A DNA stretch of 64,000 bases, taken from the NCBI GenBank assembly GCA_050613775.1, contig JBODTK010000158.1, positions 310,001-374,000 on the forward strand, read 5' to 3'. Both the position numbers and the translations under genes were made by a program. The DNA comes from Neocallimastix sp. 'constans' (lineage: Eukaryota). A model generated the notes under the pieces. The model had not been told where the DNA came from and ran no database searches. It saw only the letters and a list, made by a program, of their open reading frames with translations. Below are positions 40,931 through 64,000 of the stretch, piece by piece. Within the stretch, counting starts at the first letter, position 1, and each line of letters opens with the position of its first letter.

Positions 40931-41235
40931 AGAAATGGGTAATTATTTGAAAGTCCATTAAGGTATTTGCTATTACCGACCTCTTTCAAGCAAATATAGA
41001 TAGGTTTAAAAAATATCATTATTAAAGTATCTAATACCATCACGTTTTTCAGCATTCCATCCATTAATGTTCCAACTGACACAAAGATTGAAGAATTGAG
41101 TAGACGGTGAGTAAATGCTACTATAAAGAAAATCTTTTACCATTGATTTAGTTTCAAAAGAAGAAAATTTATTGTTGAATTTATTAACATAACTGAAAGT
41201 TCGAATTTCGTTGGTTATGATCTAATTAATTTTAC

Positions 41236-44219: not shown

Positions 44220-44220
44220 A

Positions 44221-44864
44221 TGTAACGAAATCCTCAGTTAGTAAAATTAGAACCTTGGTTCAATGGTTAGTTACATTGACCATGACCAATACTTCATGGG
44301 TTTGACTCACACCTCAACCCATTTTGCATAAATAATTATTTTATTAATTATTTTATTAATTATTAATAATATCTTCTTGAATATTCTTTCTGTATAAAAT
44401 TATAGAAAGTTAAAGATTCTTTCGGTTTGTAATTTAACCGAAATGAATTTAGAAATTCTTATTATATAAATTATTTTATTCTTTTTTGATAAGATTCATT
44501 TTCATCAATTAAAATCTATATTCTAGAAACTTTACATTATTAATTAGTACAAACATATTTCTAAATATTTCTTTAAAATTATTTTTACATGTTAAAACTG
44601 TTTTTCCGTTAAAAGTATAAATAGTGCGAACTTCACGAATGAAAATATTTTTCTTCGTGCTTTTATTAATAATAATTAACGTATAAGTAATTCGAAATAT
44701 TACCTTGTTGATTAATATTAATAATTATTTTAAATTTTATAATTAATAAAAAATATTTCTAATAAAACGAATTATTTATACAGATAGTGTAAACCTATTG
44801 AGTTTTCTCCTTTCTGTGTTTCTATATCTCATCCCGCCTTTACAATAGAAGCACCTCCGTTACA
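44221..44864 (+). repeat. 5' LTR of element A (644 bp)
   Basis: Perfect 7-bp terminal inverted repeat TGTAACG...CGTTACA; TATAAAT at 44616; followed immediately by the self-priming site. Confidence 0.82.
44249..44325 (+). promoter_or_regulatory. Degenerate tRNA-like segment (Pol III A box and B box) inside the element A LTR
   Basis: TGGTTCAATGGTTAG (44256-44270) and GGTTTGACTC (44299-44308) at tRNA-like spacing (T8 to G53 equivalent 44 nt). ATTG/CAAT stem between them and a TTTT run at 44322. The B box has T at the normally invariant C and the cloverleaf is imperfect. Confidence 0.55.
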
Positions 44865-44874
44865 ATAAAAGCAC
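44864..44874 (+). promoter_or_regulatory. Tf1-type self-priming primer binding site
   Basis: AATAAAAGCAC is the exact reverse complement of GTGCTTTTATT (44657-44667), ~40 nt downstream of the LTR TATA box. No TGG-type tRNA PBS is present. Confidence 0.75.
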
Positions 44875-45373: not shown

Positions 45374-45673
45374 GGGTGTGGGGCATTTCGCCAAGTTGCA
45401 TTTCGCCAAATTGAAAATTATTAAATAAATAAATAAATCAATAAATAAAATTAAATATTATTAATATCGCATAAAAACAATTTTAAAAAAATATTTTGAA
45501 TTAATATTTATTTATTTATTCATTTATTTATATCAATACTCTACTTGTCGAAATGCAACCTGGCGAATAGCAACTTGGGGAAATGCAACTTGGGGAAATG
45601 CAACATTTTAATACTACGCCACTTGGCGAAATGCAATCTGGCGAAATGCAATTTGGGGAAATGCAACTCTCCC
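45374..45673. mobile_element. 300-bp non-autonomous TIR element (Mutator-like MITE) in the element A leader
   Basis: 9-bp TSD AAATTTTAG at 45365-45373 and 45674-45682. Imperfect TIRs GGGTGTGGGGCATTTCGCCAA / GGGAGAGTTGCATTTCCCCAA. About nine 15-bp GCATTTCGCCAAGTT-type subterminal repeats, inverted between the ends. Confidence 0.82.
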
Positions 45674-46916
45674 AAATTTTAGATAATATTAAATTAATCT
45701 TGTAATACCTTAACCCTTCAAAATTAATTCTAATATTTACCCAACAAAATTAATTAATAATTAAATAATATTAAATTAATTTAGTAAGAAAATTTTTAAT
45801 TTTTAGATAAATATTTTAGATTAATTTAGTAAATAAATCAATTAGTTTTAGATAAATAAAAAAAAAAAAAAAAAAAAAAATAATAATAATAATAATAATA
45901 ATATTAATAATTATAATAATAATTTTTATTTTTAATTATTTTAATAAATTACTTGCTTGAAATAATAGCAAGAAAAACCTGTGCAATTTTATTTTTTATT
46001 TATTTATTTAAAAAGCGTTTATACGAGAGAATAGAGCTCATATACAGAGTTAGAAGAATTATCTTCTTTAGTGTTGCACTCGACGAATAGATTTGGTTCT
46101 AGACTAGGTAAAACTCTATAGGAGAGCACCGTAGCCTATTATAAAGGAAAACGGTTCTAGGTTTGCAACAACTCTGGCGAATAAGGAGCTTACGTCACCG
46201 AAGGCGTAAGATTAAAATTATATAGTATTTTAAAATTTTATTTCGTGCTTACTCGCGGCACTAGTTATAATAGTACTGACGGTTTTTTCTATAGTTGTGA
46301 GTCAATAGTACTATTCTATTTTATCAATCAATAATTTTATAATTAATATTATAATTTTATAATTAAGAAAACAAAGATTAAAATATAAATATAAGGTTTA
46401 TACGACTTCCAAAGCGACAGAAGTTGGTCTCTGTTTTCGTAACATTTTAGTGTTCAGATACTATTGATATAGGGGAAAATAATTTGTTTTATGGAAAATA
46501 ATTTGTTTTATTCTTTTCAGCTAACAATAAGTTAGATATAATAAAGAATCTAACAATATTACTTCCTTTTGTCTATAAGACATTAACAATCGATTTTATC
46601 TGCGTTATCACTAAAAGGCTAAAGGAACTTATCGTATAAAACTTTGATAGATTATATATTTAGTTGGTCCAATACTATATAATCTAGTTTATATTTCAGT
46701 AATTTTTGATAAATAATTATAAAATAAAAATATTTAATTATAAAATATTATAAAGTGTTATTAAAATTTTGTGTTCTTATCCATTAACCTTGGAAACCTA
46801 CCAATAAACAACTTTTGGATTATTGGAATCTCTACTACCACTTTGGGAACTTCTGGATTCTACCGCCTATTCTTTATCTTTGAAAATTTATTCTACTCTA
46901 CCTTATCTATTTCAAT

Positions 46917-48353
46917 ATGGACGACTATAATCAAGAAAATCCTACCTTTAAGGACGGTTTTGCTGGTGATCGTCGATTCTTTAAAGGATTTCTAGCTAAA
47001 ATGGAACTTATTTTTATGATTCAACCGGAAAGATTTGCAAACGATGAAGCTAAAGTAATCTATATCATTTCTCGTTTGTATGGAAACGCCATGAATTGGG
47101 CTGCTACTCTCATTGAAAACCAAGATCCTTGTCTCCTTAATTATAATCAATTCATTGCTAGACTAAAATCAATATTTGGAAGCCACGATTCTACCTTTTT
47201 TGCCAACCAGAAATTAAGAACAATCAAACAAAAACGAATTGGTGAAGTCAGAAATTATATTTTAGAATTTAATAAATACGCCGATGAATCTTCTTGGAAT
47301 GAAGAAGCCAAGATGGACGCCTTTCTTGCCGGTCTACACGACCATATTGCTACTAGAATTTTAGAAATGTTTCCTGGACCTCAAACCCTCTTTGCTATGC
47401 AAACAATTGCATCTAGAATCGATAATCATATCTCTACTCATAGACAATTTTCCAATCTTCAAGGTCAAAATTCAAATAATAGTAATAATAATAAAAATAA
47501 AAAGGGCAAAAAATCATTCTTTTTCCAAAAACAATTTAAATCCAAACCTCATGGACCTCTATCTCAAGAAGAAAAAGAAAGAAGAAGAAGAGAAAATCTT
47601 TGTCTATATTGTGAATCCTCTGAACATTCTCTCGACAATTGTCCACTTAAAAATAAATATAAAAATAAAAATAAACCTTCATCAAGTAGCACTTATATTT
47701 CTAATACCGAATCAAAACCTTTATCCAGACCTAGAGTTTCTGACTCAAATCTTCCTATTTACGAATTTTCTTTAAGTATTGATAATACAAATTCTACCGC
47801 TAAAATTCTACTCGATACTGGTTCTCAAATCAATTTAATGGATATCTACTATATTAAAGAAAATAATATCCCTTATTCAACCAAAACTAATTTCCCTAAG
47901 GTATCTGGCATCGGTGGAAAGCAAACTATTCTTGGTAAAACTCTTCCTATTTCCATCACTTATAATAATCATAAATGTAAGACGCAATTCTATGTGGTTA
48001 ACCTTCCTTCTTATTGTGCTATTTTAGGTTTCGAATGGATTTCTACTCACAATCCTGATATTGACTTCAAAAATAAAGTCTTAAGATTTAATTCCAATTA
48101 TTGTGTTGAAAATTGTTTAATCATCCCTAACTCCTTTACTTCTTATGTTTCTTTAAATACTACTAAACAAAATGACAAAAATGAAAATGAAGAAATCAAT
48201 AATAAAATAAGCAAATCATTACCAAAAAAATTACTTCCATTTATAGACACTTTCAGTGAAATATACACTAATGAATCACCCCCTTATTGTCCTTTTGATA
48301 GCGAGATTAAACCCAAACAAAATGAAAAACTTCATTATGATCCAATCCTCTAG
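46917..48353 (+). CDS. Element A Gag (capsid, CCHC knuckle) plus aspartic protease
   Basis: PEG10/sushi-like gag ([55 protein letters not shown]); protease LLDTGS and ILGFEW. Confidence 0.9.
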
Positions 48354-48361
48354 CTTCGAAG

Positions 48362-49339
48362 AAATATATTATAGAAAATGAAGACAAAAAATTTATTAGA
48401 AAATCTAAATCTCCAGCTGCTGCTTCTGTTTCATTTGTTCCCAAGAAAGACCTAAATGATCTCTTTCGTATTCATAAACCACCCTCCGATTTTTTTTCTG
48501 ATAAAGATTCTCAATTCACTTCAAAATTTTGGTCAGCTATTTGTAAATCTTTCAATATCACAACGAAACTTGCTTCTCCCTTCCATCACCAAACCAATGG
48601 TTTAACGGAGAGGGTGAACTCCGTTATTGAACAATACTTAAGATGTTATTCAAACTTTAAAGGTTCTGATTGGTATAATTTTTTATTCCTAGCAGAATTC
48701 AGTTATAATAATTCAATTCAAGAATCAATTAAGCACTCACCTTTTTATGCAAACTATGGATATAATCCAAGATATTCACCATCAATTCCAAACAGTACAG
48801 ATGTTCCTAGAGCTGATGAATTCACAAAAGACCTTTCAGAATTATTCAAAACACTTAATGGAAATTTACAACAAGCAAGAAAAAAGCAAGAAGAATTCGC
48901 AAACAAATATCGTATTGAAGCTCCAAATTTTAAACCTGGTGATAAAGTGTGGATTAATAGTTCACTTATAATTCATAATGGAAATAAAAAACTTAAACCT
49001 AGAAAACTTGGTCCATATAAAATCATTAAGAAAATTTCTCCCGTTTCATATAAGTTAGACTTACCAAAAGAAATCAGAATCCATCCTGTAATACATGTTT
49101 CTGAACTTGAACCATTTTATGAAGATCACTTTGGACGAAAGAAAGAACCACCACCACCGGTAGTTATTGACAATGAAGAAGAATACGAAGTTGAAAAAAT
49201 TCTTGATAAAAGAAAACATTATGGCAAAACCCAATATCTTATTAAATGGAAAGGCTATCCTTTATCTGAAGCATCTTGGGAACCCGAAGAAAATTTAAAT
49301 TGCCCTAAACTCTTAAAAGAATTTAACAAAAATAACTAA
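48362..49339 (+). pseudogene. Element A pol remnant: RT N-terminal stub fused in frame to integrase C-half and chromodomain
   Basis: [20 protein letters not shown] joins directly (~48451) to [35 protein letters not shown] motif; chromodomain [32 protein letters not shown]. Confidence 0.88.
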
Positions 49340-49669
49340 AATTAAAACTTGAAAATGAATCTTTACTTTATTAATATTAAACTTATATTAATTTATTAAT
49401 ATCAATATTACTAAATATTATTTTATATTATTAAATATTATTAATATTCATGTATTCTTATAATATTTTATATTCATGTAACTTTATTAATATCATGTAA
49501 TTTTATTCAAAAAAGTTCGTACTATAAAATGGTTAATTAATTATTTTTATTTTATTATATTTTATTTTATTTTAATTTAGTTTAGTTTAGTTTAGTTTGC
49601 TTAATTTTAGTATAGTTATGCCTAACTGTTAGATTCGTCTGGTATCTGAATCCTGGAGGCGGACCATGT

Positions 49670-51404
49670 TGTAAAATATTTGTAAAATATTTAATAATTT
49701 GAATACGTATTTAAATGTAATGTAATGTAAATTATTGTGGATAAAAATGTTTTCCAAATTTTTAATATAAATTTAAATGTATTCCAAATTATTAATTTAA
49801 ATAATTTTCTCAAAAATTTATGACTAAATTATTTGGAGAATTTACGTAACAATTACTCAGTTGAATCACGAAACTTCATAAATTAAAAAATAATTAGTCA
49901 TTAATTAGTTAAATTAAAATAATTAAAGGAATATTGCCTTTTCCGTTTGTTTACAAAAACTTGCCGTTTTGTTTACTTGTCTTTTAAATTATAGAAATTC
50001 TAAAAATAAAAATAGCAAGTTGTGGTTTAGTAAATTGGTTTTCACAACTTGGCAAAATTTAAATTAAATATATGGATAGAATATATTTAATCATATAATT
50101 AATGAATTAAACTCTAAATTTTCTTCATAGAAAATTTTAGAAAAATTAGATAGTTTTAAATAGGATTTATATTAAAATAATTCATAACATTTCATGTAAT
50201 TTATTATATAATGTAATTGATAATATAAAATAATATGTTTATGTAATTTATTAAAATTTATTTTGATTTAAAACTTTATTTTGAAAAAGTATAAAAAGAG
50301 TTAATTTTTCAACTATTGAACGATAGTTGGAAAATCGTATAGAATAGGAAAATCGTATAGAATAGGAAAATTTAAATTTTATTATTAGTTTCGTAACTAT
50401 TATTAGAATAGTTACTTTCTTATAAAACAATTATATTATAGTTTGTAAAACCTTAACTGCTAGTGGGAACTCCGGAAAGGACCCTGCGTTACCCAGTTAA
50501 GTGGTTGTTGAAAATTAGTTAATAAATAAAATAAATAAATAAAAGAAATTAAAAAAGAAAATAATTAATTAAATAATAGAGGTTTAAGATATAGTGTTAT
50601 TAGTGTAGTAAAGTTAGTTTAGAATAGCCACATGTTAAAATTAAGATATAAAATAGTTTTATGATTAATAACGTTACTAGGTTAATATGTTGAATTATAT
50701 ATTAATAATCCAACAATAATTAATTAATAATAATATAAAAATAATATAAGATAAATAGTTAAGTTATTTAAACACTTAATATCTAAGAATATTTTAAATA
50801 ATAATTTCTTTGAAGGATTTATGAAAATATTTATTTATTGAATTATTAGTATATAATTATTGTAAGTACAATAACCTTACAAAGAACATAAAAGATAGAT
50901 TTTTACATCTTTCTTTTATACTTTGTAAGTTACATAATAATAATATTTAATTATAAGATATTAATAATATAGTAATATGAATATTAATAAAATATTAAGA
51001 TAATAACAATATCGATATGTTTAAAATATTTAATATAACTAAATAAATTTAATTTATAATTATATAATTAATTTGAATAATTAAAAATAGTAGTTAATAT
51101 ATATGATGTAAACATATATATAAACATAATATAAATAAATACATGTGACGTCATATGTAGATAATTGAAATTATTAATATAAATCTTATTTACTAATATT
51201 CTCAGAATTATTAGGCCTAAGATAATTCCTTGAATATTAAATAAGAATTTATATTAATTATTAATTATTTAAATATATATATTATTTATAATTAAATAAA
51301 TAATATTTGTTAACTATTGAAATGTAAATAACTGAAATTGAGATTTCAATTCAGTTATAATTTCAACACCACAAACCTAGACTTGATAAGTACTTTATTT
51401 TACA
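49670..51404. mobile_element. Element Y: 1735-bp non-coding TG..CA insertion, probably a solo LTR of another family
   Basis: Perfect 9-bp terminal inverted repeat TGTAAAATA...TATTTTACA. 5-bp TSD CATGT at 49665-49669 and 51405-51409. Removing it restores PPT-CA-TGTAACGAAATCC. Confidence 0.82.
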
Positions 51405-52233
51405 CATGTAACGAAATCCTCAGTGGTATGGTTCATATAGTTTTAGGAATATAATAATAATTAACACAAATAATTAAATTACATTAAAAAAAATAATTTG
51501 TTTTAAAATCAATATTTATTTATTTAAATTTATAAAAGAAAAATAATAATATAATTATTTATTTAATAAAAGTAAGTTATTGATTATATTTTATTTCACT
51601 AAAATTACATGTATTTATATTTTTTTTATCAAATTAAAATTTGTAAAGCCTAACTATTTTTTTAATAAACTAATTACTAATTATTTTTATAAATAAAACA
51701 TTTAAATTGAAATTGAATTATTATTTTAGTTAATAATATTATTGTTATAAATAGTAGTTATATATTATTGAATTATTAATTATTTAATAATAGTTTAATA
51801 CTAATATATATAAAATAAAAATAAAGAGATTATACAGAATATTTTATTGTGGTTTAGTTAAATTTAGTAATTAAAAATAAATTTAAATTGATAACGAAAA
51901 TTTTAATAACTAATTAAATAAATTTGATTATTTTCAATATAACATAATACAAAAGAAATATAATATTAATATATTAAGTGGGTAAGGACAATATTCTTGG
52001 CTAAAGATTTTTAATACATTATAATGGAATCGGATCGATAATTCAAAAAGGAATTATAAGTTAATTAGTGATTTATTAACTTAAGATTTCTATTTAGTAA
52101 TATTTGAAGAATATTGGAAAGTTCCAATTATATAGAATAGAATAATCTATAAGATTAGAATAATTTATATTATTCTAGCACAATTAGTATTATTTGTTCA
52201 TTCTGTATTAAGATGCCCCCGCTAAGACTCAAG

Positions 52234-55200
52234 CTAGGTAGAAGCTGAGTTAAACTTGACAATATTTTTCAAATGAACATTACGATTCATTTGTATATTA
52301 GTAGCAGGATCAGCTAAAGTGACTGTATTGAATTGTTTCTTTACCACTTTCATAGGTCCAACAAAATAAGGTTCTAATTTAGTTCGATTAAAGTTTCTTA
52401 CTAGTACTAAATCACCTGGTTTTATTCTTTTAGCTTGATTCATACTGGTCTTTTCTTCTCTCCTAGTAGCCCAATACTTCGAAGCATTTTTGATATTAGA
52501 TGCGGCCTCCATTACCCATTGGTAGTGTGATACAAATTTTTCCAGTAGAATTTCGTCAGAAGACTTATTTATACCCTTAGTTGGTCTGGCAGCAATGTCA
52601 AAAGGTTGTTGGTCTTCCCTTCCATAAACTAATTCAAAACTTGAATGGTTGGTGATTGAGATTTTAGTAGTTCTTAAAGCCCAAAGTGCAGATGGTAAAA
52701 TTTCATCCCATTCTTTGTGTTGTTGTCCTAGTAATCGTAATAATTTTCCAATTTCTTTATTACGATTCTCAACTAAACCATTGCTTTCAGGATGATATGG
52801 AGTGATAAATTTAACATATACATCATATAAATCAAGGAAGATTTTTGTCATATCTGATGTAAATTGTGTTCCATTATCAGTAGTGATAATTTGAGGTACA
52901 CCGTGTCGAGCAAATACATTAATTAAAAATTTTATCACATCCTGAGAAGTAACATTTTCAGTGGGCTCTGCCTCAAACCATTTAGTAAAATAATCAACCA
53001 TAACGATTATATATTGATTATTATTTCTGGTTTTACTTAGAGGTCCTATAATGTCCAATCCTAAGTGTATAAATGGTCCTTCCACTTCAGTTGGTTTATC
53101 TTCCGTTGGTTCAGGGTATGGTTGAGATTTATTTAATTGACATTTTTCACATTTACCTATAATTCGCTTAATGTCATTAACCATATTGTTCCAATAGTAG
53201 CTCTTTTTCAAACGTTGGTATGTCTTGTAATAGCCTTCGTGTCCTATACTGTGTGCTTGAAAAATTAATTGAAGTTTTTCTTTTGTATCTGTAACTAATT
53301 TTCTATAATTATTGCCATCAACAAAGTAGTCCACACCATCAATTGTCGTAAATTTTTCTTCAATAAATTCCTTAATGATTCTTGAAAGCAGGTTTTCATC
53401 TTGTTCCTTGATAATTTGTGTTGTTAAGACAACTTTTTCTTTTTCATTTTTCATTCTTGATAAAGCATCTGCGACAACATTATTCTTTCCAGTTTCATAT
53501 CGTAAATCAATTCCTAACATACTGACAGTCAAACACCATCTAGTATGACGAGAATTTTGTGGTTCCTTCCTTTTAAGTAATCCGATTAATGGTCTATGAT
53601 CTGTATATACTATAGTTTGCTTAGGATTTCCCATAATATAAGATTTTAATTTATTAATACAGTAAATTAGAGCAGCACCTTCTAGATCCGTAATTCCATA
53701 ATTCTTTTCCGATTTAGATAAACTTCTACTAATATAATGAACCGGATGCTCCTTTCCAGTTTCATCATCCTTTTGTAAAAGCACACCGCCTATTCCATCA
53801 TAGGAAGCATCTGTTCTTATAATAAATTCTCTATCAAATCTAGGAAATCTTAATATTGGGGCATTGATTAATCTTTCCTTAAGAATTTTAAAACTTTCTT
53901 CTTGTTCCTTTTTCCATTCAAACTTAACACCTTTTCTTAATAGAGTGCAGAGAGGAGCAGTAACTTTTGCAAAGTCCTTAATAAAATTTCTATAATATCC
54001 AATGGCTCCTAAAAATGATCGAAGTTCATGAATGTTAGAGGGAGCCTTCCATTCTTTAATAGCTTCAACTTTGTTTTCCAATGGACTTAAACCTTCTGAG
54101 GATACTTTATGTCCAAGTACTTCTACTTCAGTTTGCATGAAAGAACACTTTTCGATATTGATTTTTAACTTATGTTCCCTGAATATTTCTAAGACTTGTT
54201 TAAGATGTTCTAGGTGTTCTTCTTCAGTTCTTGAGTAGATTAAAATATCATCGATAAAGTTATAGACGCATTTTCCTATTAAGGGAAATAGTATACGGTT
54301 CATTTCTCTTTGGAATGTAGCTGGAGCACCTGTTAAACCGAAGGGCATTACCTTGAATTGGTAGTTTCCGAACTTAGTTGTAAAGGTAGTGATTTCAACA
54401 CTATCATCCTCCATTAATATTTGATGATAACCGGAATAAAGATCTAATGTTGAGAAGATTTTTGCTCCATCTAAGCTATCAAAAATTTCCTCAATATTTG
54501 GTAAAGAATAAGAATCCTTCTTAGTTGCTTCATTTACTTTCCTATAGTCAATACACAGTCGCCATTTACCGTTCTTTTTAGGCACAAGTACTACTGGTGA
54601 TGACCATTCTGAACATGAAGGTTCAATTAATCGTTTATATATGAGTTTGGTTAATTCTTCTTTTAAGATATCTGTTTTTAATTTACTAAGTCGATAAAAT
54701 TTTTGTTTAATAGGTTTAATTCCTTCCTTAAGAATAATTTTGTGTGGTGATAAATCTGAAGGTGTTAATTCTTCAGAAGAAGTTGCAATTATATTAATAT
54801 ATTCTTCAAGTAATTTAGTAATAGCTTCTCTATAATTTGAATTAATTGTACTTTGAAAAACTGTGTCATATATATATTTTATGGGTGGTAATCCTTCAAT
54901 CGTTTTCAATTGTTGCTTAGCTTCTTGGTGATTCAATGCTTTGATTACACATAATAATTTTTCTTCGTCATCATATTCATTATTAATAGGTGCAATTTCT
55001 TCAATTAAACCTTGATCATTAAATCGACAAAGACTATATCTAATTGGATGTATAAATAACTGGTTATCAATTTGAGTTTTGAGGTTGATTAATATATCAT
55101 AGAATGGATCCTCCTTGTCTATAATTCTACACGTAACAAGTAGTTCTAGTTCATTAATTTTTACGGGAACTTTGATTAACACATCTTCTGAGTAATCATC

Positions 55201-56235
55201 ATTCATCGTTGCTAAACGTATTCGTCCTGCACTAACTCCTATAGGTTCATACTGATAAGGTAATTTATCTAAAAATTGCTTTGTGATAATACTTAAGTTA
55301 CTACATGAATCTATTAAAGCCTTACCACGAACTCCATCTACTATTACATCAACCATAGCAATATCATCTTCTTGTGGTTCATGATGTTTACTTTTATATG
55401 TATGATCTATATTGTTCGTTATTATTGTAGTAGCACACATATTATCCACTGCACCTGAAATTTTAGTATTATTCTTTTCTAATTTAAGTCCTTGTGATAC
55501 TTGAGACCGTATCTTTGGAGCAACGTCCAATAATTGTCCAAATGTAATATTGCAATTACTGGAGTTTAAATCTTTGATCACGTCATAACTATCACAATCA
55601 GTTTGCATTTGTATTCTTTTTGGAATTCTAGTTGGCATAATTTCAGTTGACTTTTCTGATGATTTTTCTTGAATTAATTTATTTAAAGTTTGTTTAGAAT
55701 TATTTCCTTCCTGAGAAGTTTCTTCATTAATAATATTAACAATACTATTTTTATTATTTTCCACAGAAGTACTAGTACTAGCTCTTTCCTTATCTCTTAG
55801 CTCTTTCTCAATCCTCTTTTCTTTCTCTATTCTGGGTTGAGCCATAATCGAAGGATGTAATTGAGTTGTTGGCTTTTTGACTGGTCGCGATGTTCCCCTT
55901 AATTGATTTTCTTTTTGTTTTCGTAAACCTGGAGTAACTATTGGCTTAGGATCATCTCTTAGACTACGGTGAACCCTCTTTCCTCTTTGGTCACTAGTCT
56001 CTTCATCTTTAGGATTTGCCTTTCTCTTTATAACGTTTACTAAGTAATCCAATTCTTTGGAACCATCCGACTCATCATCAAAATCTTCGTAATAATCCGT
56101 AGTAGTACCTTCTTGGAAATCAGCAATTTCTTCATAATCATCATCTTCTTTTAAGTCAACTGTTTTGGGACGATGGCAGACTGAAGCAATTTTTTTGACG
56201 ATGGGAGTGCTTCTACTCCCTTTTAGTGGTTTAAA
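52234..56235 (-). CDS. B1 Pol (protease, RT, RNase H, integrase), expressed by -1 frameshift from gag
   Basis: ALIDSCS protease; WRLCIDYR, LDLYSGYHQI, MPFGL, FIDD; TDAS and DALSR; HHCC and DDE integrase in Gypsy order. The frame is open from the slippery site at 56235 down to the stop at 52234. Confidence 0.94.
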   Translation of the reverse strand, partial: FKPLKGSRSTPIVKKIASVCHRPKTVDLKEDDDYEEIADFQEGTTTDYYEDFDDESDGSKELDYLVNVIKRKANPKDEETSDQRGKRVHRSLRDDPKPIVTPGLRKQKENQLRGTSRPVKKPTTQLHPSIMAQPRIEKEKRIEKELRDKERASTSTSVENNKNSIVNIINEETSQEGNNSKQTLNKLIQEKSSEKSTEIMPTRIPKRIQMQTDCDSYDVIKDLNSSNCNITFGQLLDVAPKIRSQVSQGLKLEKNNTKISGAVDNMCATTIITNNIDHTYKSKHHEPQEDDIAMVDVIVDGVRGKALIDSCSNLSIITKQFLDKLPYQYEPIGVSAGRIRLATMNDDYSEDVLIKVPVKINELELLVTCRIIDKEDPFYDILINLKTQIDNQLFIHPIRYSLCRFNDQGLIEEIAPINNEYDDEEKLLCVIKALNHQEAKQQLKTIEGLPPIKYIYDTVFQSTINSNYREAITKLLEEYINIIATSSEELTPSDLSPHKIILKEGIKPIKQKFYRLSKLKTDILKEELTKLIYKRLIEPSCSEWSSPVVLVPKKNGKWRLCIDYRKVNEATKKDSYSLPNIEEIFDSLDGAKIFSTLDLYSGYHQILMEDDSVEITTFTTKFGNYQFKVMPFGLTGAPATFQREMNRILFPLIGKCVYNFIDDILIYSRTEEEHLEHLKQVLEIFREHKLKINIEKCSFMQTEVEVLGHKVSSEGLSPLENKVEAIKEWKAPSNIHELRSFLGAIGYYRNFIKDFAKVTAPLCTLLRKGVKFEWKKEQEESFKILKERLINAPILRFPRFDREFIIRTDASYDGIGGVLLQKDDETGKEHPVHYISRSLSKSEKNYGITDLEGAALIYCINKLKSYIMGNPKQTIVYTDHRPLIGLLKRKEPQNSRHTRWCLTVSMLGIDLRYETGKNNVVADALSRMKNEKEKVVLTTQIIKEQDENLLSRIIKEFIEEKFTTIDGVDYFVDGNNYRKLVTDTKEKLQLIFQAHSIGHEGYYKTYQRLKKSYYWNNMVNDIKRIIGKCEKCQLNKSQPYPEPTEDKPTEVEGPFIHLGLDIIGPLSKTRNNNQYIIVMVDYFTKWFEAEPTENVTSQDVIKFLINVFARHGVPQIITTDNGTQFTSDMTKIFLDLYDVYVKFITPYHPESNGLVENRNKEIGKLLRLLGQQHKEWDEILPSALWALRTTKISITNHSSFELVYGREDQQPFDIAARPTKGINKSSDEILLEKFVSHYQWVMEAASNIKNASKYWATRREEKTSMNQAKRIKPGDLVLVRNFNRTKLEPYFVGPMKVVKKQFNTVTLADPATNIQMNRNVHLKNIVKFNSAST
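56183..56235 (-). promoter_or_regulatory. -1 programmed ribosomal frameshift signal of B1 (same signal in B2 at 63201-63253)
   Basis: In-frame U-UUA-AAC heptamer, 8-nt spacer, stem GGGAGU/ACUCCC whose loop GAAGC can pair with downstream GCUUC (H-type pseudoknot). Pol is in the -1 frame relative to gag. Confidence 0.85.
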
Positions 56236-57140
56236 TAATTTTCATAAAACTTCTTGCGGTTATTTTCCAATATAGAATTTAATTTAGGACAGTTTCGTTT
56301 GGTATGTCCTTCATTGCTACAAAACCAGCAAGTACTAATTTTCATTTCTTTCATCTTGTTAGTGAGATTTTCTATAGATACATTTTTGTGGGTTTTTGGT
56401 TTGTTAAAATCATTTGAAATGTTCTTATTAAGATTACTTTTAGAGTTAAGGAGATTGTAACGAGTCTTATCATAATATTCAGTACTATTTTTAATAGATA
56501 AACGATCAACTTTTTCAGCTATAGCGAATGCTTTAGTAATAGAAATATTGTCTTTAAGCATAACCTTTCTCCATGCGTCAGGATTATTGGTTAAGGAATC
56601 TGCATAATCTAAAACACTAATTTTTCTTCTTCTCTTTTTATCCAATTTATGGTACAAAGATCTATAACGGACATTAAAATCTTTAACTTTCTCGTTCTTC
56701 TTTATTTTCATGGAACGCAATTCTCGTAACAAGTTGGTTTGATCTTCTTTAAGTCCATAGAAAGTCTTCAGATGATTTATGATTTCATCAAGGCTTGGGT
56801 AGGTGGTAGTAGATTCACTTTCTTCATCATCTTCTCCTTCACTATCGCTATCGAAATCAGAATCTTCATCTTCAGTAAGGTCATTTCCATCTTCTAGTTC
56901 TTGGATAATTTCTCTTGGTTCTCCAGAAGCCGTTAATATACAAGCAGTAAAAATAGTTTCAGGATCCTTGATATGTTGGTATTTTATCCATGCCTTTAAC
57001 TCATTTGCCCAGGAGTTGATGTCAAGGTTTTGTTTAGTAAGCTTTTCAAAATCTTTTAATTCTTTCTTTAATTCTCTGAAGCTAAGCTTACTTTCTGGAG
57101 TACTCTCTGTTGGAGTACTGGAAGTACTGGATGTTCTCAT
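56223..57140 (-). CDS. B1 Gag with CCHC zinc knuckle (305 aa)
   Basis: Major-homology-like KKNEKVKDFNVRY; CWFCSNEGHTKRNC. Confidence 0.92.
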   Translation of the reverse strand: MRTSSTSSTPTESTPESKLSFRELKKELKDFEKLTKQNLDINSWANELKAWIKYQHIKDPETIFTACILTASGEPREIIQELEDGNDLTEDEDSDFDSDSEGEDDEESESTTTYPSLDEIINHLKTFYGLKEDQTNLLRELRSMKIKKNEKVKDFNVRYRSLYHKLDKKRRRKISVLDYADSLTNNPDAWRKVMLKDNISITKAFAIAEKVDRLSIKNSTEYYDKTRYNLLNSKSNLNKNISNDFNKPKTHKNVSIENLTNKMKEMKISTCWFCSNEGHTKRNCPKLNSILENNRKKFYENYLNH

Positions 57141-57620
57141 AAAATAAAATTTATTGTATCTATAGAATGCTAAACCTCGTAATGTATAAATTGTTATAAA
57201 AAAGTAAAAATAAAAAAAATTAAAAAAAATAAATCTTTTAACTAATAAAATTATTAATTATTTATTATTATTAATCACTTATTAAATTATAATAATCGTG
57301 CAATCTGATAGTACACACTGTCTGACGTGCAGCTTACCTCTTGAAAGGTGTCATGCCACGCGTGTGCCACGGTTACTATTTTCAATATAAAAAATAGCAG
57401 TCCAGAGCCTACTAGCCCAATTACTATGTAGGATAAACTTAACCCGGAAATCTATGCACGAATATTAATTTAATTTAATAATAATTAATATTTTTAACAA
57501 TTAATAATAATTAGTTAAAAATATAAAAATTGTTTTTTAAAAAAAAATTTTTTGTTTTATTAGAAAAATTATTTATTAATATTATAATTTTATCCCCAAT
57601 GTATTAATTTATTATTATAT

Positions 57621-57638
57621 TCCCCGATATCTCCACCA
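57621..57638 (-). promoter_or_regulatory. B1 primer binding site, 18 nt, tRNA-Ala-like
   Basis: TGGTGGAGATATCGGGGA complements a tRNA 3' end UCCCCGAUAUCUCCA-CCA. The ..CUCCA end is typical of eukaryotic tRNA-Ala. Confidence 0.75.
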
Positions 57639-59248
57639 ATTTTTCATGGTATGGTTCATATAGTTTTAGAAATATAATAATAATTAACACAAATAATTAA
57701 ATTACATTAAAAAAAATAATTTGTTTTAAAATCAATATTTATTTATTTAAATTTATAAAAGAAAAATAATAATATAATTATTTATTTAATAAAAGTAAGT
57801 TATTGATTATATTTTATTTCACTAAAATTACATGTATTTATATTTTTTTTATCAAATTAAAATTTGTAAAGCCTAACTATTTTTTTAATAAACTAATTAC
57901 TAATTATTTTTATAAATAAAACATTTAAATTGAAATTGAATTATTATTTTAGTTAATAATATTATTGTTATAAATAGTAGTTATATATTATTGAATTATT
58001 AATTATTTAATAATAGTTTAATACTAATATATATAAAATAAAAATAAAGAGATTATACAGAATATTTTATTGTGGTTCAGTTAAATTTAGTAATTAAAAA
58101 TAAATTTAAATTGATAACGAAAATTTTAATAACTAATTAAATAAATTTGATTATTTTCAATATAACATAATACAAAAGAAATATAATATTAATATATTAA
58201 GTGGGTAAGGACAATATTCTTGGCTAAAGATTTTTAATACATTATAATGGAATCGGATCGATAATTCAAAAAGGAATTATAAGTTAATTAGTGATTTATT
58301 AACTTAAGATTTCTATTTAGTAATATTTGAAGAATATTGGAAAGTTCCAATTATATAGAATAGAATAATCTATAAGATTAGAATAATTTATATTATTCTA
58401 GCACAATTAGTATTATTTGTTCATTCTGTATTATCAGTGGTATGGTTCATATAGTTTTAGGAATATAATAATAATTAACACAAATAATAAAATTACAATA
58501 AAATAAAATAATTTGTTTTAAAATCAATATTTATTTATTTAAATTTGTAAAAGAAAAATAATAATATAATTATTTATTTAATAAAAAGAAAGTTATTGAT
58601 TATATTTTATTTCACTAAAATTACATGTATTTATATTTTTTTATCAAATTAAAATTTGTAAAGCCTAACTATTTTTTTAATAAGCTAATTACTAATTATT
58701 TTTATAAATAAAACATTTAAATTGAAATTGAATTATTATTTTAGTTAATAATATTATTGTTATAAATAGTAGTTATATATTATTGAATTATTAATTATTT
58801 AATAATAGTTTAATACTAATATATATAAAATAAAAATAAAGAGATTATACAGAATATTTTATTGTGGTTTAGTTAAATTTAGTAATTAAAAATAAATTTA
58901 AATTGATAACGAAAATTTTAATAACTAATTAAATAGATTTGATTATTTTCAATATAACATAATACAAAAGAAATATAATATTAATATATTAAGTGGGCAA
59001 GGACAATATTCTTGGCTAAAGATTTTTAATACATTATAATGGAATCGGATCGATAATTCAAAAAGGAATTATAAGTTAATTAGTGATTTATTAACTTAAG
59101 ATTTCTATTTAGTAATATTTGAAGAATATTGGAAAGTTCCAATTATATAGAATAGAATAATCTATAAGGTTAGAATAATTTATATTATTCTAGCACAATT
59201 AGTATTATTTGTTCATTCTGTATTAAGATGCCCCCGCTAAGACTCAAG

Positions 59249-62200
59249 CTAGGTAGAAGCTGAGTTAAACTTGACAATATTTTTCAAATGAACATTACGA
59301 TTCATTTGTATATTAGTAGCAGGATCAGCTAAAGTGACTGTATTGAATTGTTTCTTTACCACTTTCATAGGTCCAACAAAGTAAGGTTCTAATTTAGTTC
59401 GATTAAAGTTTCTTACTAGTACTAAATCACCTGGTTTTATTCTTTTAGCTTGATTCATACTGGTCTTTTCTTCTCTCCTAGTAGCCCAATACTTCGAAGC
59501 ATTTTTGATATTAGATGCGGCCTCCATTACCCATTGGTAGTGTGATACAAATTTTTCCAGTAGAATTTCGTCAGAAGACTTATTTATACCCTTAGTTGGT
59601 CTGGCAGCAATGTCAAAAGGTTGTTGGTCCTCCCTTCCATAAACTAATTCAAAACTTGAATGGTTGGTGATTGAGTTTTTAGTAGTTCTTAAAGCCCAAA
59701 GTGCAGATGGTAAAATTTCATCCCATTCTTTGTGTTGTTGTTCTAGTAATCGTAATAATTTTCCAATTTCTTTATTACGATTCTCAACTAAACCATTGTT
59801 TTCAGGATGATATGGAGTGATAAATTTAACATATACATCATATAAATCAAAGAAGATTTTTGTCATATCTGATGTAAATTGTGTTCCATTATCAGTAGTG
59901 ATAATTTGAGGTACACCGTGTCGAGCAAATACATTAATTAAAAATTTTATCACATCCTGAGAAGTAACATTTTCAGTGGGCTCTGCCTCAACCCATTTAG
60001 TAAAATAATCAACCACAACGATTATATATTGATTATTATTTCTGGTTTTACTTAGAGGTCCTATAATGTCCAATCCTAAGTGTGTAAATGGTCCTTCCAC
60101 TTCAGTTGGTTTATCTTCCGTTGGTTCAGGGTATGGTTGAGATTTATTTAATTGACATTTTTCACATTTACCTATAATTCGCTTAATGTCATTAACCATA
60201 TTGTTCCAATAGTAGCTCTTTTTCAAACGTTGGTATGTCTTGTAATAGCCTTCGTGTCCTATACTGTGTGCTTGAAAAATTAATTGAAGTTTTTCTTTTG
60301 TATCTGTAACTAATTTTCTATAATTATTGCCATCAACAAAGTAGTCCACACCATCAATTGTCGTAAATTTTTCTTCAATAAATTCCTTAATGGTTCTTGA
60401 AAGCAGGTTTTCATCTTGTTCTTTGATAATTTGTGTTGTTAAGATAACTTTTTCTTTTTCATTTTTCATTCTTGATAAAGCGTCTGCAACAACATTATTC
60501 TTCCCAGCTTCATATCGTAAATCAATTCCTAACATACTGACAGTCAAACACCATCTAGTATGACGAGAATTTTGTGGTTCCTTCCTTTTAAGTAATCCGA
60601 TTAAGGGTCTATGGTCTGTATATACTATAGTTTGCTTAGGATTTCCCATAATATAAGATTTTAATTTATTAATACAGTAAATTAGAGCGGCACCTTCTAG
60701 ATCCGTAATTCCATAATTCTTTTCCGATTTAGATAAACTTCTACTAATATAATGAACCGGATGCTCCTTTCCAGTTTCATCATCCTTTTGTAAAAGCACA
60801 CCGCCTATTCCATCATAGGAAGCATCTGTTCTTATAATAAATTCTCTATCAAATCTAGGAAATCTTAATATTGGGGCATTGATTAATCTTTCCTTAAGAA
60901 TTTTAAAACTTTCTTCTTGTTCCTTTTTCCATTCAAACTTAATACCTTTTCTTAATAGAGTGCAGAGAGGAGCAGTAACTTTTGCAAAGTCCTTAATAAA
61001 ATTTCTATAATATCCAATGGCTCCTAAAAATGATCGAAGTTCATGAATGTTAGAGGGAGCCTTCCATTCTTTAATAGCTTCAACTTTGTTTTCCAATGGA
61101 CTTAAACCTTCTGAGGATACTTTATGTCCAAGTACTTCTACTTCAGTTTGCATGAAAGAACACTTTTCGATATTGATTTTTAACTTATGTTCCTTGAATA
61201 TTTCTAAGACTTGTTTAAGATGTTCTAGGTGTTCTTCTTCAGTTCTTGAGTAGATTAAAATATCATCGATAAAGTTATAGACACATTTTCCTATTAAGGG
61301 AAATAGTATACGGTTCATTTCTCTTTGGAATGTAGCTGGAGCACCTGTTAAACCGAAGGGCATTACCTTGAATTGGTAGTTTCCGAACTTAGTTGTAAAG
61401 GTAGTGATTTCAACACTATCATCATCCATTAATATTTGATGATAACCGGAATAAAGATCTAATGTTGAGAAGATTTTCGCTCCATCTAAGCTATCAAAAA
61501 TTTCCTCAATATTTGGTAAAGAATAAGAATCCTTCTTAGTTGCTTCATTTACTTTCCTATAGTCAATACACAGGCGCCATTTACCGTTCTTTTTAGGCAC
61601 AAGTACTACTGGTGATGACCATTCTGAACATGAAGGTTCAATTAATCGTTTATATATGAGTTTGGTTAATTCTTCTTTTAAGATATCTGTTTTTAATTTA
61701 CTAAGTCGATAAAATTTTTGTTTAATAGGTTTAACTCCTTCCTTAAGAATAATTTTGTGTGGTGATAAATCTGAAGGTGTTAATTCTTCAGAAGAAGTTG
61801 CAATTATATCAATATATTCTTCAAGTAATTTAGTAATAGCTTCTCTATAATTTGAATTAATTGTACTTTGAAAAACTGTGTCATATATATATTTTATGGG
61901 TGGTAATCCTTCAATCGTTTTCAATTGTTGCTTAGCTTCTTGGTGATTCAATGCTTTGATTACACATAATAATTTTTCTTCGTCATCATATTCATTATTA
62001 ATAGGTGCAATTTCTTCAATTAAACCTTGATCATTAAATCGACAAAGACTATATCTAATTGGATGTATAAATAACTGGTTATCAATTTGAGTTTTGAGGT
62101 TGATTAATATATCATAGAATGGATCCTCCTTGTCTATAATTCTACACGTAACAAGTAGTTCTAGTTCATTAATTTTTACGGGAACTTTGATTAACACATC

Positions 62201-63253
62201 TTCTGAGTAATCATCATTCATCGTTGCTAAACGTATTCGTCCTGCACTAACTCCTATAGGTTCATACTGATAAGGTAATTTATCTAAAAATTGCTTTGTG
62301 ATAATACTTAAGTTGCTACATGAATCTATTAAAGCCTTACCACGAATTCCATCTACTATTACATCAACCATAGCAATATCATCTTCTTGTGGTTCATGAT
62401 GTTTACTTTTATATGTATGATCTATATTGTTCGTTATTATTGTAGTAGCACACATATTATCCACTGCACCTGAAATTTTAGTATTATTCTTTTCTAATTT
62501 AAGTCCTTGTGATACTTGAGACCGTATCTTTGGAGCAACGTCCAATAATTGTCCAAATGTAATATTGCAATTACTGGAGTTTAAATCTTTGATCACGTCA
62601 TAACTATCACAATCAGTTTGCATTTGTATTCTTCTTGGAATTCTAGTTGGCATAATTTCAGTTGACTTTTCTGATGATTTTTCTTGAATTAATTTATTTA
62701 AAGTTTGTTTAGAATTATTTTCTTCCTGAGAAGTTTCTTCATTAATAACATTAACATTACTATTATTATTATTATTTTCCACAGAAGTACTAGTACTAGC
62801 TCTTTCCTTATCTCTTAGCTCTTTCTCAATTCTCATTTCTTTTTCTATTCTAGGTTGAACCATAATCGAAGGATGTAATTGAGTTGTTGGCTTTTTGACT
62901 GGTCGCGATGTTCCCCTTAATTGATTTTCTTTTTGTTTTCGTAAACCTGGAGTAACTATTGGCTTAGGATCATCTCTTAGACTACGGTGAACCCTCTTTT
63001 CTCTTTGGTCACTAGTCTCTTCATCTTTATGATTTGCCTTTCTCTTTATAACGTTTACTAAGTAATTCAATTCTTTGGAACCATCCGACTTATCATCAAA
63101 ATCTTCGTAATAATCCGTAGTAGTACCTTCTTGGAAATCAGCAGTTTCTTCATAATCATCATCTTCTTTTAAGTCAACTATTTTGGGACGATGGCAGACT
63201 GAAGCAATTTTTTTGACGATGGGAGTGCTTCTACTCCCTTTTAGTGGTTTAAA
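59249..63253 (-). CDS. B2 Pol (protease, RT, RNase H, integrase)
   Basis: 1273-aa ORF nearly identical to B1 Pol, with the same frameshift signal. Confidence 0.93.
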   Translation of the reverse strand, partial: FKPLKGSRSTPIVKKIASVCHRPKIVDLKEDDDYEETADFQEGTTTDYYEDFDDKSDGSKELNYLVNVIKRKANHKDEETSDQREKRVHRSLRDDPKPIVTPGLRKQKENQLRGTSRPVKKPTTQLHPSIMVQPRIEKEMRIEKELRDKERASTSTSVENNNNNSNVNVINEETSQEENNSKQTLNKLIQEKSSEKSTEIMPTRIPRRIQMQTDCDSYDVIKDLNSSNCNITFGQLLDVAPKIRSQVSQGLKLEKNNTKISGAVDNMCATTIITNNIDHTYKSKHHEPQEDDIAMVDVIVDGIRGKALIDSCSNLSIITKQFLDKLPYQYEPIGVSAGRIRLATMNDDYSEDVLIKVPVKINELELLVTCRIIDKEDPFYDILINLKTQIDNQLFIHPIRYSLCRFNDQGLIEEIAPINNEYDDEEKLLCVIKALNHQEAKQQLKTIEGLPPIKYIYDTVFQSTINSNYREAITKLLEEYIDIIATSSEELTPSDLSPHKIILKEGVKPIKQKFYRLSKLKTDILKEELTKLIYKRLIEPSCSEWSSPVVLVPKKNGKWRLCIDYRKVNEATKKDSYSLPNIEEIFDSLDGAKIFSTLDLYSGYHQILMDDDSVEITTFTTKFGNYQFKVMPFGLTGAPATFQREMNRILFPLIGKCVYNFIDDILIYSRTEEEHLEHLKQVLEIFKEHKLKINIEKCSFMQTEVEVLGHKVSSEGLSPLENKVEAIKEWKAPSNIHELRSFLGAIGYYRNFIKDFAKVTAPLCTLLRKGIKFEWKKEQEESFKILKERLINAPILRFPRFDREFIIRTDASYDGIGGVLLQKDDETGKEHPVHYISRSLSKSEKNYGITDLEGAALIYCINKLKSYIMGNPKQTIVYTDHRPLIGLLKRKEPQNSRHTRWCLTVSMLGIDLRYEAGKNNVVADALSRMKNEKEKVILTTQIIKEQDENLLSRTIKEFIEEKFTTIDGVDYFVDGNNYRKLVTDTKEKLQLIFQAHSIGHEGYYKTYQRLKKSYYWNNMVNDIKRIIGKCEKCQLNKSQPYPEPTEDKPTEVEGPFTHLGLDIIGPLSKTRNNNQYIIVVVDYFTKWVEAEPTENVTSQDVIKFLINVFARHGVPQIITTDNGTQFTSDMTKIFFDLYDVYVKFITPYHPENNGLVENRNKEIGKLLRLLEQQHKEWDEILPSALWALRTTKNSITNHSSFELVYGREDQQPFDIAARPTKGINKSSDEILLEKFVSHYQWVMEAASNIKNASKYWATRREEKTSMNQAKRIKPGDLVLVRNFNRTKLEPYFVGPMKVVKKQFNTVTLADPATNIQMNRNVHLKNIVKFNSAST

Positions 63254-64000
63254 TGATTTTCATAAAACTTCTTGCGGTTATTTTCCAATATAGAATTTAA
63301 TTTAGGACAGTTTCGTTTGGTATGTCCTTCATTGCTACAAAACCAGCAAGTACTAATTTTCATTTCTTTCATCTTGTTAGTGATATTTTCTATAGATACA
63401 TTTTTGTGGGTTTTTGGTTTGTTAAAATCATTTGAAATGTTCTTATTAAAATTACTTTTAGAGTTAAGGAGATTGTAATGAGTCTTATCATAATATTCAG
63501 TACTATTTTTAATAGATAAACGATCAACTTTTTCGGCTATAGCGAACGCTTTGGTAATAGAAATATTGTCTTTAAGCATAACCTTTCTCCATGCGTCAGG
63601 ATTATTGGTTAAGGAATCTGCATAATCTAAAACACTAATTTTTCTTCTTCTCTTTTTATCCAATTTATGGTACAAAGATCTATAACGGACATTAAAATCT
63701 TTAACTTTCTCGTTCTTCTTTATTTTCATGGAACGTAATTCTCGTAACAAATTGGTTTGATCTTCTTTAAGTCCATAGAAAGTCTTCAGATGATTTATGA
63801 TTTCATCAAGGCTTGGGTAGGTGCTAGTAGATTCACTTTCTTCATCATCTTCTCCTTCACTATCGCTATCGAAATCAGAATCTTCATCTTCAATAAGGTC
63901 ATTTCCATCTTCTAGTTCTTGGATAATTTCTCTTGGTTCTCCAGAAGCCGTTAATATACAAGCAGTAAAAATAGTTTCAGGATCCTTGATATGTTGGTAT
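63241..64000 (-). CDS. B2 Gag (5' end outside the window)
   Basis: Near-identical to B1 Gag including CWFCSNEGHTKRNC. Confidence 0.9.
   Translation of the reverse strand, partial: YQHIKDPETIFTACILTASGEPREIIQELEDGNDLIEDEDSDFDSDSEGEDDEESESTSTYPSLDEIINHLKTFYGLKEDQTNLLRELRSMKIKKNEKVKDFNVRYRSLYHKLDKKRRRKISVLDYADSLTNNPDAWRKVMLKDNISITKAFAIAEKVDRLSIKNSTEYYDKTHYNLLNSKSNFNKNISNDFNKPKTHKNVSIENITNKMKEMKISTCWFCSNEGHTKRNCPKLNSILENNRKKFYENHLNH

What the first reader, a model, noticed from the sequence alone, without database searches (positions are those of the whole stretch)
49655..64000. Candidate mobile landing pad: three LTR-element insertions in the first 17 bp of one LTR, just upstream of its tRNA-like Pol III promoter
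Seen: the 3' LTR of chromovirus A can be rebuilt as PPT-CA|TGT[Y]AACGAAATCC TCAG[B1]TCAG[B2]. In the intact 5' LTR (44221) the same TCAG lies 18 nt upstream of an A-box-like TGGTTCAATGG, with a B-box-like motif at tRNA spacing. Established: Pol III starts about 18-20 nt upstream of the A box, and chromodomain-less Gypsy elements (yeast Ty3, S. japonicus Tj1, Dictyostelium DGLT-A) integrate at or near Pol III start sites. Inference: family B is a Pol III-targeting retrotransposon, and element A spreads tRNA-mimic target sites that B parasitises. Caveats: the 5' LTR copy is unoccupied, its B box is mutated, and the 3' LTR copy of the tRNA-like segment is outside the window.
Basis: partly seen in the sequence, partly recalled or inferred. 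Interest (0 to 1): 0.88.

Follow-up and report, generated by a model that had tools for sequence, protein, structure and literature searches.

The report
Retrotransposon pile-up beside tRNA-like LTR promoter
In a likely anaerobic gut fungus, two separate copies of one retrotransposon sit at the same four bases inside the end repeat of another; the intact twin of that repeat carries a decayed, likely tRNA-derived stretch 15 bases further on, so the intruder likely homes on tRNA genes and took this stretch for one, though only this single locus could be examined.

Summary
The junctions are real. Chromovirus A's 3' LTR holds solo LTR Y at +3 (5-bp duplication; a fourth element, Z, is nested in it) and two independent copies of Gypsy family B head to tail at +14..+17, separated by a 4-bp duplication. 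In A's intact 5' LTR a 73-nt stretch starts 15 nt from where B would end. It is the best A-box/B-box pair in the window (18.1 bits, next 13.2; 0 of 167,270 control positions reach 17), aligns to real tRNAs better than 300 of 300 shuffles, and ends in TTTT. It is no tRNA: no Rfam or covariance-model hit, no cloverleaf, B box weaker than all 40 reference tRNAs. Fifteen nt matches DGLT-A and Ty3, and B's integrase has a DGLT-A-like short tail. Best reading (0.6): B targets Pol III genes and hit A's tRNA-derived U3 twice. Not shown: the right flank lies outside the window, no second B flank on that side was read, and other A-type 3' LTRs seen in public contigs are mostly empty. Both ingredients are known; their combination was not found in my searches. 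A family-wide landing pad stays a hypothesis (0.33).

The parts
41215..44220 (-). 3' part of a LINE interrupted by element A; its 5' part is expected beyond the window
   Evidence: 96.6% identical over 2998 nt to the intact copy whose ORF is 19207-23382
44221..44864 (+). 5' LTR of chromovirus A (TGT...TTACA, 644 bp)
   Evidence: right end supported by self-priming complementarity
44234..44237 (+). Empty target site TCAG (LTR +14..+17)
44249..44325 (+). Decayed tRNA-like stretch: A box 44256-44266, B box 44299-44308 (one mismatch at an invariant C), TTTT 44322-44325
   Evidence: for; searches show it is not a recognisable tRNA
44865..44874 (+). Self-priming type primer site of A, complementary to 44657-44666 in the LTR
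45374..45673 (.). MITE with 9-bp target duplication in A's leader
46884..48353 (+). A gag-protease ORF
   Evidence: Ty3_capsid, Retrotrans_gag
48341..49339 (+). A integrase C-terminal half with SH3 and chromodomain; RT and RNase H missing in this copy
   Evidence: P0136, 95% identical in gag-protease, is complete
49655..49669 (+). A polypurine tract and first 3 nt of the 3' LTR
49670..51404 (.). Y, solo-LTR-like element (994 bp without Z), 5-bp duplication CATGT
50633..51368 (.). Z, 736-bp solo LTR nested in Y, 5-bp duplication CCACA
51407..51423 (+). First 17 nt of A's 3' LTR, identical to 44221-44237
51424..58433 (-). B1, intact non-chromoviral Gypsy element: LTRs 57647-58433 (5') and 51424-52210 (3'), 787 bp, 2 differences; primer site 57621-57638; gag 56223-57257; pol 52234-56241
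58434..58437 (+). Target-site duplication between B1 and B2
58438..64000 (-). B2, second copy of family B (3' LTR 58438-59225), cut by the window end in gag
   Evidence: 98.7% identical to B1 over 5568 nt; 11 LTR and 59 internal differences

Best explanation
Family B is likely a Gypsy retrotransposon that integrates about 15 bp upstream of Pol III (tRNA-type) genes, and it inserted twice at one site in chromovirus A's 3' LTR, likely because that LTR carries a likely tRNA-derived A-box/B-box stretch. Steps: (1) A inserted into a LINE with two identical LTRs (nesting shown; identity of the LTRs beyond +17 inferred from the LTR replication mechanism). (2) A's U3 holds a 73-nt tRNA-like stretch (sequence similarity shown; origin from a tRNA or SINE head inferred). 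(3) TFIIIC/TFIIIB would assemble on the 3' LTR copy while its B box was still good (inferred, untested; the visible 5' copy has a damaged B box and is empty). (4) A B intasome would be tethered there, more likely through TFIIIC as proposed for DGLT-A than through a Ty3-type chromodomain, which B lacks (inferred). (5) Because the boxes lie downstream and survive each insertion, the site is regenerated and a second B copy lands in the same 4 bp (double insertion shown; cause inferred). Y and Z are best read as chromovirus-type nesting in a repeat cluster, Y possibly helped by open chromatin at the same spot.
For: Two independent B copies share one 4-bp duplication: B1's LTRs differ at 2 of 787 sites, B1 and B2 LTRs at 11, internal parts at 59; three letters shared by both B1 LTRs differ from B2 and from the majority of public contigs. 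The stretch is the top A+B site of the window (18.1 bits, next 13.2; spacing 43, real range 42-46; A box 13.3 bits, inside the real range 9.2-19.1); 0 of 167,270 positions in 20 related retroelement contigs reach 17 bits; best alignment to 40 real tRNAs scores 40 against 14.1 +/- 5.0 for shuffles, 0 of 300 as high; TTTT follows the tRNA-equivalent 3' end and the GC-richer island stops there. [quoted passage not shown] B's integrase ends 38 aa after the GPY/F-type motif, with no chromodomain; D. discoideum DGLT-A has 32 aa (PMC5006619).
Against: One locus only, and the motif is seen in the other LTR. No tRNA match by ARAGORN default, Rfam (3 scans), or my own covariance and sequence models at E <= 10. 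The fold is two long hairpins, not a cloverleaf, so the boxes could be by-products of inverted repeats. B box 4.8 bits, below all 40 reference tRNAs (lowest 9.0); total below all 40 (lowest 18.8). Control DNA reaches 16.4 bits by chance. The reference tRNAs are prokaryotic. A-type 3' LTR starts in public contigs are mostly empty. None of 14 contigs with B relatives holds a tRNA, though only L009 shows a flank, on the other side. tRNA targeting is described mainly from compact genomes (PMC5006619), and some chromodomain-less DGLT-As do not target tRNA genes.
Confidence: 0.6

Rival explanations
1. Sequence- or shape-driven hot spot without Pol III: B's integrase prefers this target sequence or the bendable, hairpin-rich start of the LTR, and the preference survives the first insertion, giving a double insertion like those of P elements.
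For: Tandems with a target duplication in the junction arise by double insertion at preferred sites (PMC5932611 passages). The stretch folds into two hairpins (z = -2.7). An unrelated element, Y, inserted 14 bp away.
Against: No palindrome centred on TCAG (1-3 matches over 6-12 bp arms). It leaves the tRNA likeness and the 15-nt spacing as coincidence (a site of this score occurs under once per 167,000 positions). In plants, LTRs are among the least-nested regions and the palindrome effect is small (PMC6911290 passages).
Confidence: 0.2
2. Ordinary heterochromatic nesting plus local re-insertion: high-copy elements pile up in a repeat cluster, and the second B copy was drawn to the end of the first rather than to anything in A.
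For: The cluster is deeply nested: LINE, A, MITE, Y, Z, B1, B2. Read depth points to many B, Y and Z copies (the tool warns it is no copy number). Some Gypsy families prefer their own kind (PMC6911290).
Against: Does not explain why the first B copy sits 15 nt before the window's only A+B box pair; exact reuse of 4 bp is improbable without a fixed tether.
Confidence: 0.12
3. The tandem is a duplication or an assembly product, or the DNA beyond the window is not A's LTR, so the inferred geometry does not apply.
For: The right end is unseen; no listed contig bridges the A/B1 junction; the B1/B2 junction was not examined in reads.
Against: B1's LTRs are closer to each other (0.25%) than B1 is to B2 (1.2-1.4%), which a later duplication would not give without gene conversion. 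Shared-LTR tandems from unequal exchange have no duplication between them. Both A LTRs carry C at +12 where contig consensus reads T.
Confidence: 0.08

Closest known systems
DGLT-A of dictyostelids (PMC5006619, PMC6101501)
   Same: Non-chromoviral Gypsy, tRNA-type primer site, very short integrase tail (32 aa against 38 here), 13-18 bp upstream of tRNA genes against 15 nt here.
   Different: DGLT-A has one ORF and hits real tRNA genes in compact genomes; B has gag and pol in overlapping frames, lives in an AT-rich repeat-laden fungus, and its one known target is inside another element. Kinship was not tested.
Ty3 (S. cerevisiae) and Tj1 (S. japonicus) (PMC5911963, PMC4600332, PMC8632968)
   Same: Gypsy elements integrating near Pol III start sites; Ty3 Gag-Pol is B's best solved relative (E 1.7e-104), as it would be for most Gypsy elements.
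   Different: Ty3 docks on TFIIIB through SH3 plus a vestigial chromodomain that B has no room for; Tj1 self-primes, makes 5-bp duplications and is transcribed in the target's direction, whereas B points away from the tRNA-like stretch and makes 4-bp duplications.
Helenus / Cassandra / Ajax (TRIMp3; PMC10886601)
   Same: LTRs carrying a small-RNA-derived Pol III promoter with conserved boxes and no proper tRNA fold; Helenus occurs in fungi.
   Different: These are short non-coding TRIMs; A belongs to a protein-coding chromovirus family with a complete relative (P0136) and a Pol II-type TATA and self-priming site. The passages I read report no targeting of those LTRs by other elements.
Tx1L in Tx1D (Xenopus; PMC1950540 passage) and double-insertion tandems (PMC5932611)
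   Same: One element inserting specifically into another; two copies separated by a target duplication.
   Different: Tx1L is a LINE whose endonuclease reads the target sequence; here the link would be a host transcription factor.

Membership tests
Pol III-targeting Gypsy elements (Ty3, Tj1, DGLT-A) - element B | Gypsy domain order PR-RT-RH-IN between LTRs | tested here: met
   (protease read from the sequence, no Pfam hit)
Pol III-targeting Gypsy elements - element B | Insertion 10-20 bp upstream of a tRNA-type +1 | tested here: inconclusive
   15 nt, but inferred from the twin LTR at one locus
Pol III-targeting Gypsy elements - element B | Most family copies flank Pol III genes | tested here: inconclusive
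   no genome held; one search gave one internal junction and one chance hit; one search listed no flank on the relevant side; 0 of 14 contigs of relatives hold a tRNA but they end at or before the LTRs
Pol III-targeting Gypsy elements - element B | Integrase or RNase H binds TFIIIB/TFIIIC | not tested
Ty3-type targeting | Vestigial chromodomain after the SH3 domain | tested here: not met
   B ends 38 aa after the GPY/F-type motif; 96 of 105 top relatives carry the motif, with tails of 25-66 aa from its start; none of the 105 lists PF00385
DGLT-A lineage | Phylogenetic grouping with DGLT-A RT-RH-IN | not tested
   no named DGLT-A sequence was returned
tRNA gene - stretch 44249-44321 | Cloverleaf and covariance-model score | tested here: not met
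Type 2 Pol III promoter - same stretch | A box and B box at tRNA spacing, T-run downstream | tested here: inconclusive
   A box and spacing in range, TTTT present, B box below all 40 references
Helenus / TRIMp3 - element A | Short non-coding element with tRNA-primed PBS | tested here: not met
   A encodes gag, protease, integrase, chromodomain and self-primes
Helenus / TRIMp3 - element A | tRNA-derived sequence in the LTR, conserved in the family | tested here: inconclusive
   present in this LTR; family seen only to about +33, short of the A box; no second copy found
Fungal chromovirus - element A | Chromodomain at the integrase end; TG...CA LTR; self-priming site | tested here: met
   Chromo E 7.3e-19

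The most novel reading that the evidence does not exclude
An autonomous chromovirus family carries a tRNA-derived Pol III promoter in every LTR and so seeds the genome with mobile target sites, which a tRNA-targeting Gypsy family uses repeatedly; one retrotransposon thereby sets where, and how far, another can expand, and tRNA targeting extends to a large repeat-rich early-diverging fungal genome.
Probability: 0.33. Interest if true: 0.75.

Novelty: new variant of a known kind. Interest (0 to 1): 0.52.

Why it matters
Pol III targeting is usually explained as a safe-harbour strategy of compact genomes, limited by the number of tRNA genes. If B targets Pol III sites and A's LTRs supply more of them, the target pool itself is mobile, which gives a concrete, countable case of one transposon family depending on another through a host factor. 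It would also point to a site-specific integrase in anaerobic gut fungi, a group short of genetic tools (own knowledge). If flanks show no such pattern, this is an ordinary nested cluster with a tandem insertion.

Tried and rejected
No whole genome is held. ARAGORN at a relaxed threshold gave 113 calls across the window, noise. Viral contigs: no B relative, no match to the A-box region. Metagenome scan with the B LTR end: 2 hits, one B internal junction (L001), one chance bacterial match (L002); L001's record is not searchable. B relatives as stray contigs in prokaryote MAGs: 14 loci, 12 close in composition and identity (49-64%), 2 distant; none shows a flank on the 5' LTR side. A relatives sought in 301, 31 and 57 genomes (one search repeated the 57): best 76% identical, ending before the LTR; more distant chromovirus contigs show no A+B site near LTR starts; DNA searches of 5 MAGs with A's LTR gave only low-complexity or weak hits. 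tRNA hits listed in those 5 MAGs (150 of 157 shown) are on other contigs than the retroelements. Weak C/D snoRNA matches on the minus strand of the stretch (E 3.5-4.4) taken as chance. Unequal-exchange tandem and later duplication rejected. Atlas and representative searches did not place B in a named clade. Earlier findings: none.
Full report
Setting. The window is 21.6% GC. The closest named relatives of B pol and A gag-pol carry the label Orpsp1_1 at 50-63% identity, and the runs that hold the DNA are an isolate and animal faeces metagenomes. I read this as an anaerobic gut fungus (Neocallimastigomycota; the reading of the label is recalled). No whole genome is held.

Anatomy. A LINE copy on the minus strand is cut at 44220 by element A. 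A is a chromovirus: Ty3-type capsid, integrase SH3 and chromodomain, a 644-bp LTR, and 10 nt after the LTR complementary to 44657-44666, the self-priming arrangement described for Tf1 and Tj1 (PMC4600332 passages). This copy lacks RT and RNase H; P0136, 95% identical in gag-protease, is complete. After the PPT the 3' LTR starts at 49667 and is broken after 3 nt by Y (5-bp duplication, 9-bp inverted ends). The LTR resumes to +17, then come B1, TCAG and B2. B is an intact non-chromoviral Gypsy on the minus strand with a CCHC gag, an overlapping pol, an 18-nt primer site of tRNA-Ala type (isotype from recalled identity rules) and 4-bp duplications; 4 bp is also what non-chromoviral Gypsy families make in S. 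rosetta, against 5 bp for chromoviruses (PMC6875170 passage).

B1 and B2 are separate events. B1's LTRs differ at 2 of 787 sites; B1 and B2 differ at 11 LTR sites and 59 internal sites. At 51921, 51983 and 52154 both B1 LTRs differ from B2 and from nearly all contig depth in four runs. Unequal exchange gives shared LTRs, whereas a duplication inside the junction marks double insertion (PMC5932611 passages). Exact reuse of four bases calls for a site-specific cause.

Is the stretch tRNA-like? As a gene, no: ARAGORN default, three Rfam scans, and a covariance and a sequence-only model built from 40 prokaryotic tRNAs found nothing there at E <= 10, and it folds into two hairpins. As a decayed promoter, yes beyond chance: a recalled consensus finds one A+B pair in the window; a weight matrix from the 40 tRNAs ranks it first (18.1 bits, next 13.2) at a real spacing, 1 of 3000 shuffles reaches it, and simulated sequence gave 0 and 4 positions per 300 kb for two compositions; none of 167,270 control positions reaches 17 bits, though one reaches 16.4; global alignment to real tRNAs beats 300 of 300 shuffles; TTTT follows directly. 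The B box is the weak part, below all 40 references. Helenus LTRs likewise keep boxes and lose the fold (PMC10886601, abstract, passages and section 3.5).

Geometry. Projected on the 5' LTR, B's end lies 15 nt before tRNA-equivalent +1 and the duplication ends 18 nt before the A box; Y lies 25 nt before +1. DGLT-A and Ty3 insert about 15 bp before +1 (PMC6101501 passages; tables in PMC5911963, and PMC5006619 section 6 part 1). From the control rate, a site this good within a given 20 nt is of order 1e-4 (my estimate; post hoc). B's integrase tail is short across the clade, like DGLT-A's and unlike Ty3's, whose vestigial chromodomain contacts Brf1 (PMC8632968 passages). DGLT-A RNase H and integrase N-terminus bind Tfc4, which is the model I borrow; nothing here tests it.

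Family level: mostly open. At A's PPT-LTR junction, 9, 6, 8 and 7 contigs in four runs run on without Y; in two runs the consensus continues through TCAG as the empty 5' LTR does (agreement 0.95 and 0.73), in two it is a mixture (0.69). So the reconstruction holds and the spacer is a family trait, but the view ends before the A box, and most visible sites are empty; contigs collapse copies, so this does not give an occupancy rate. Only 24 loose-end rows of 2647 were shown and none was at B's right end. Relatives of B exist widely in gut-fungal DNA but the contigs stop at the LTRs; the one flank seen (L009, 3' LTR side) is a 268-bp repeat starting like an LTR, with no tRNA. No second A LTR was found.

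Novelty. Pol III-targeting Gypsy elements, tRNA-derived LTRs, double insertion and element-into-element targeting (Tx1L, PMC1950540 passage) are each in print. I found no report of tRNA targeting in Neocallimastigomycota nor of a Pol III promoter in one LTR serving as target for another element; the library lacks most subscription papers and I opened no supplements, where Repbase-style family notes could bear on this. Verdict: observation confirmed; mechanism likely but resting on one locus with the key flank unseen; new variant of a known kind; interest 0.52.

Noticed in passing
window 57639-57646 and 52203-52210: B has 8 nt between its LTR end and the primer site and its LTR starts TA, not TG; relatives show spacers of 2 (L004), 5 (L012) and about 9 nt (L009), hinting at unusually long 3' processing in this clade.
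   Followed up: partly
window 45374-45673: MITE with internal short repeats and a 9-bp duplication (Mutator-like by that length, recalled) in A's leader, next to a poly-A run.
   Followed up: partly
window 45960-46330: GC-richer, strongly folding stretch in A's long leader (-80 kcal/mol, no shuffle control); no Rfam hit.
   Followed up: no
L009:5894-6251: A B relative's 3' LTR abuts a 268-bp tandem repeat that starts TGTAAAAG, like a chromovirus LTR; possibly another case of insertion at an LTR start, or an assembly path.
   Followed up: partly
L003-L014, L042-L044, L090, L096, L102, L105: Gut-fungal-type retroelement contigs sit inside bacterial and archaeal species-representative MAGs, evidently as binning contamination.
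   Followed up: no
window 56223-56241: B gag and pol overlap by 19 nt with a TTTAAAC heptamer on the coding strand, suggesting -1 frameshifting (pattern recalled), unlike Ty3's +1.
   Followed up: no
window 19207-24910: An intact LINE followed directly by a fragment of a second, related LINE family.
   Followed up: no
window 8594-9310: Long 9-bp tandem repeat inside an open frame (7966-10095).
   Followed up: no
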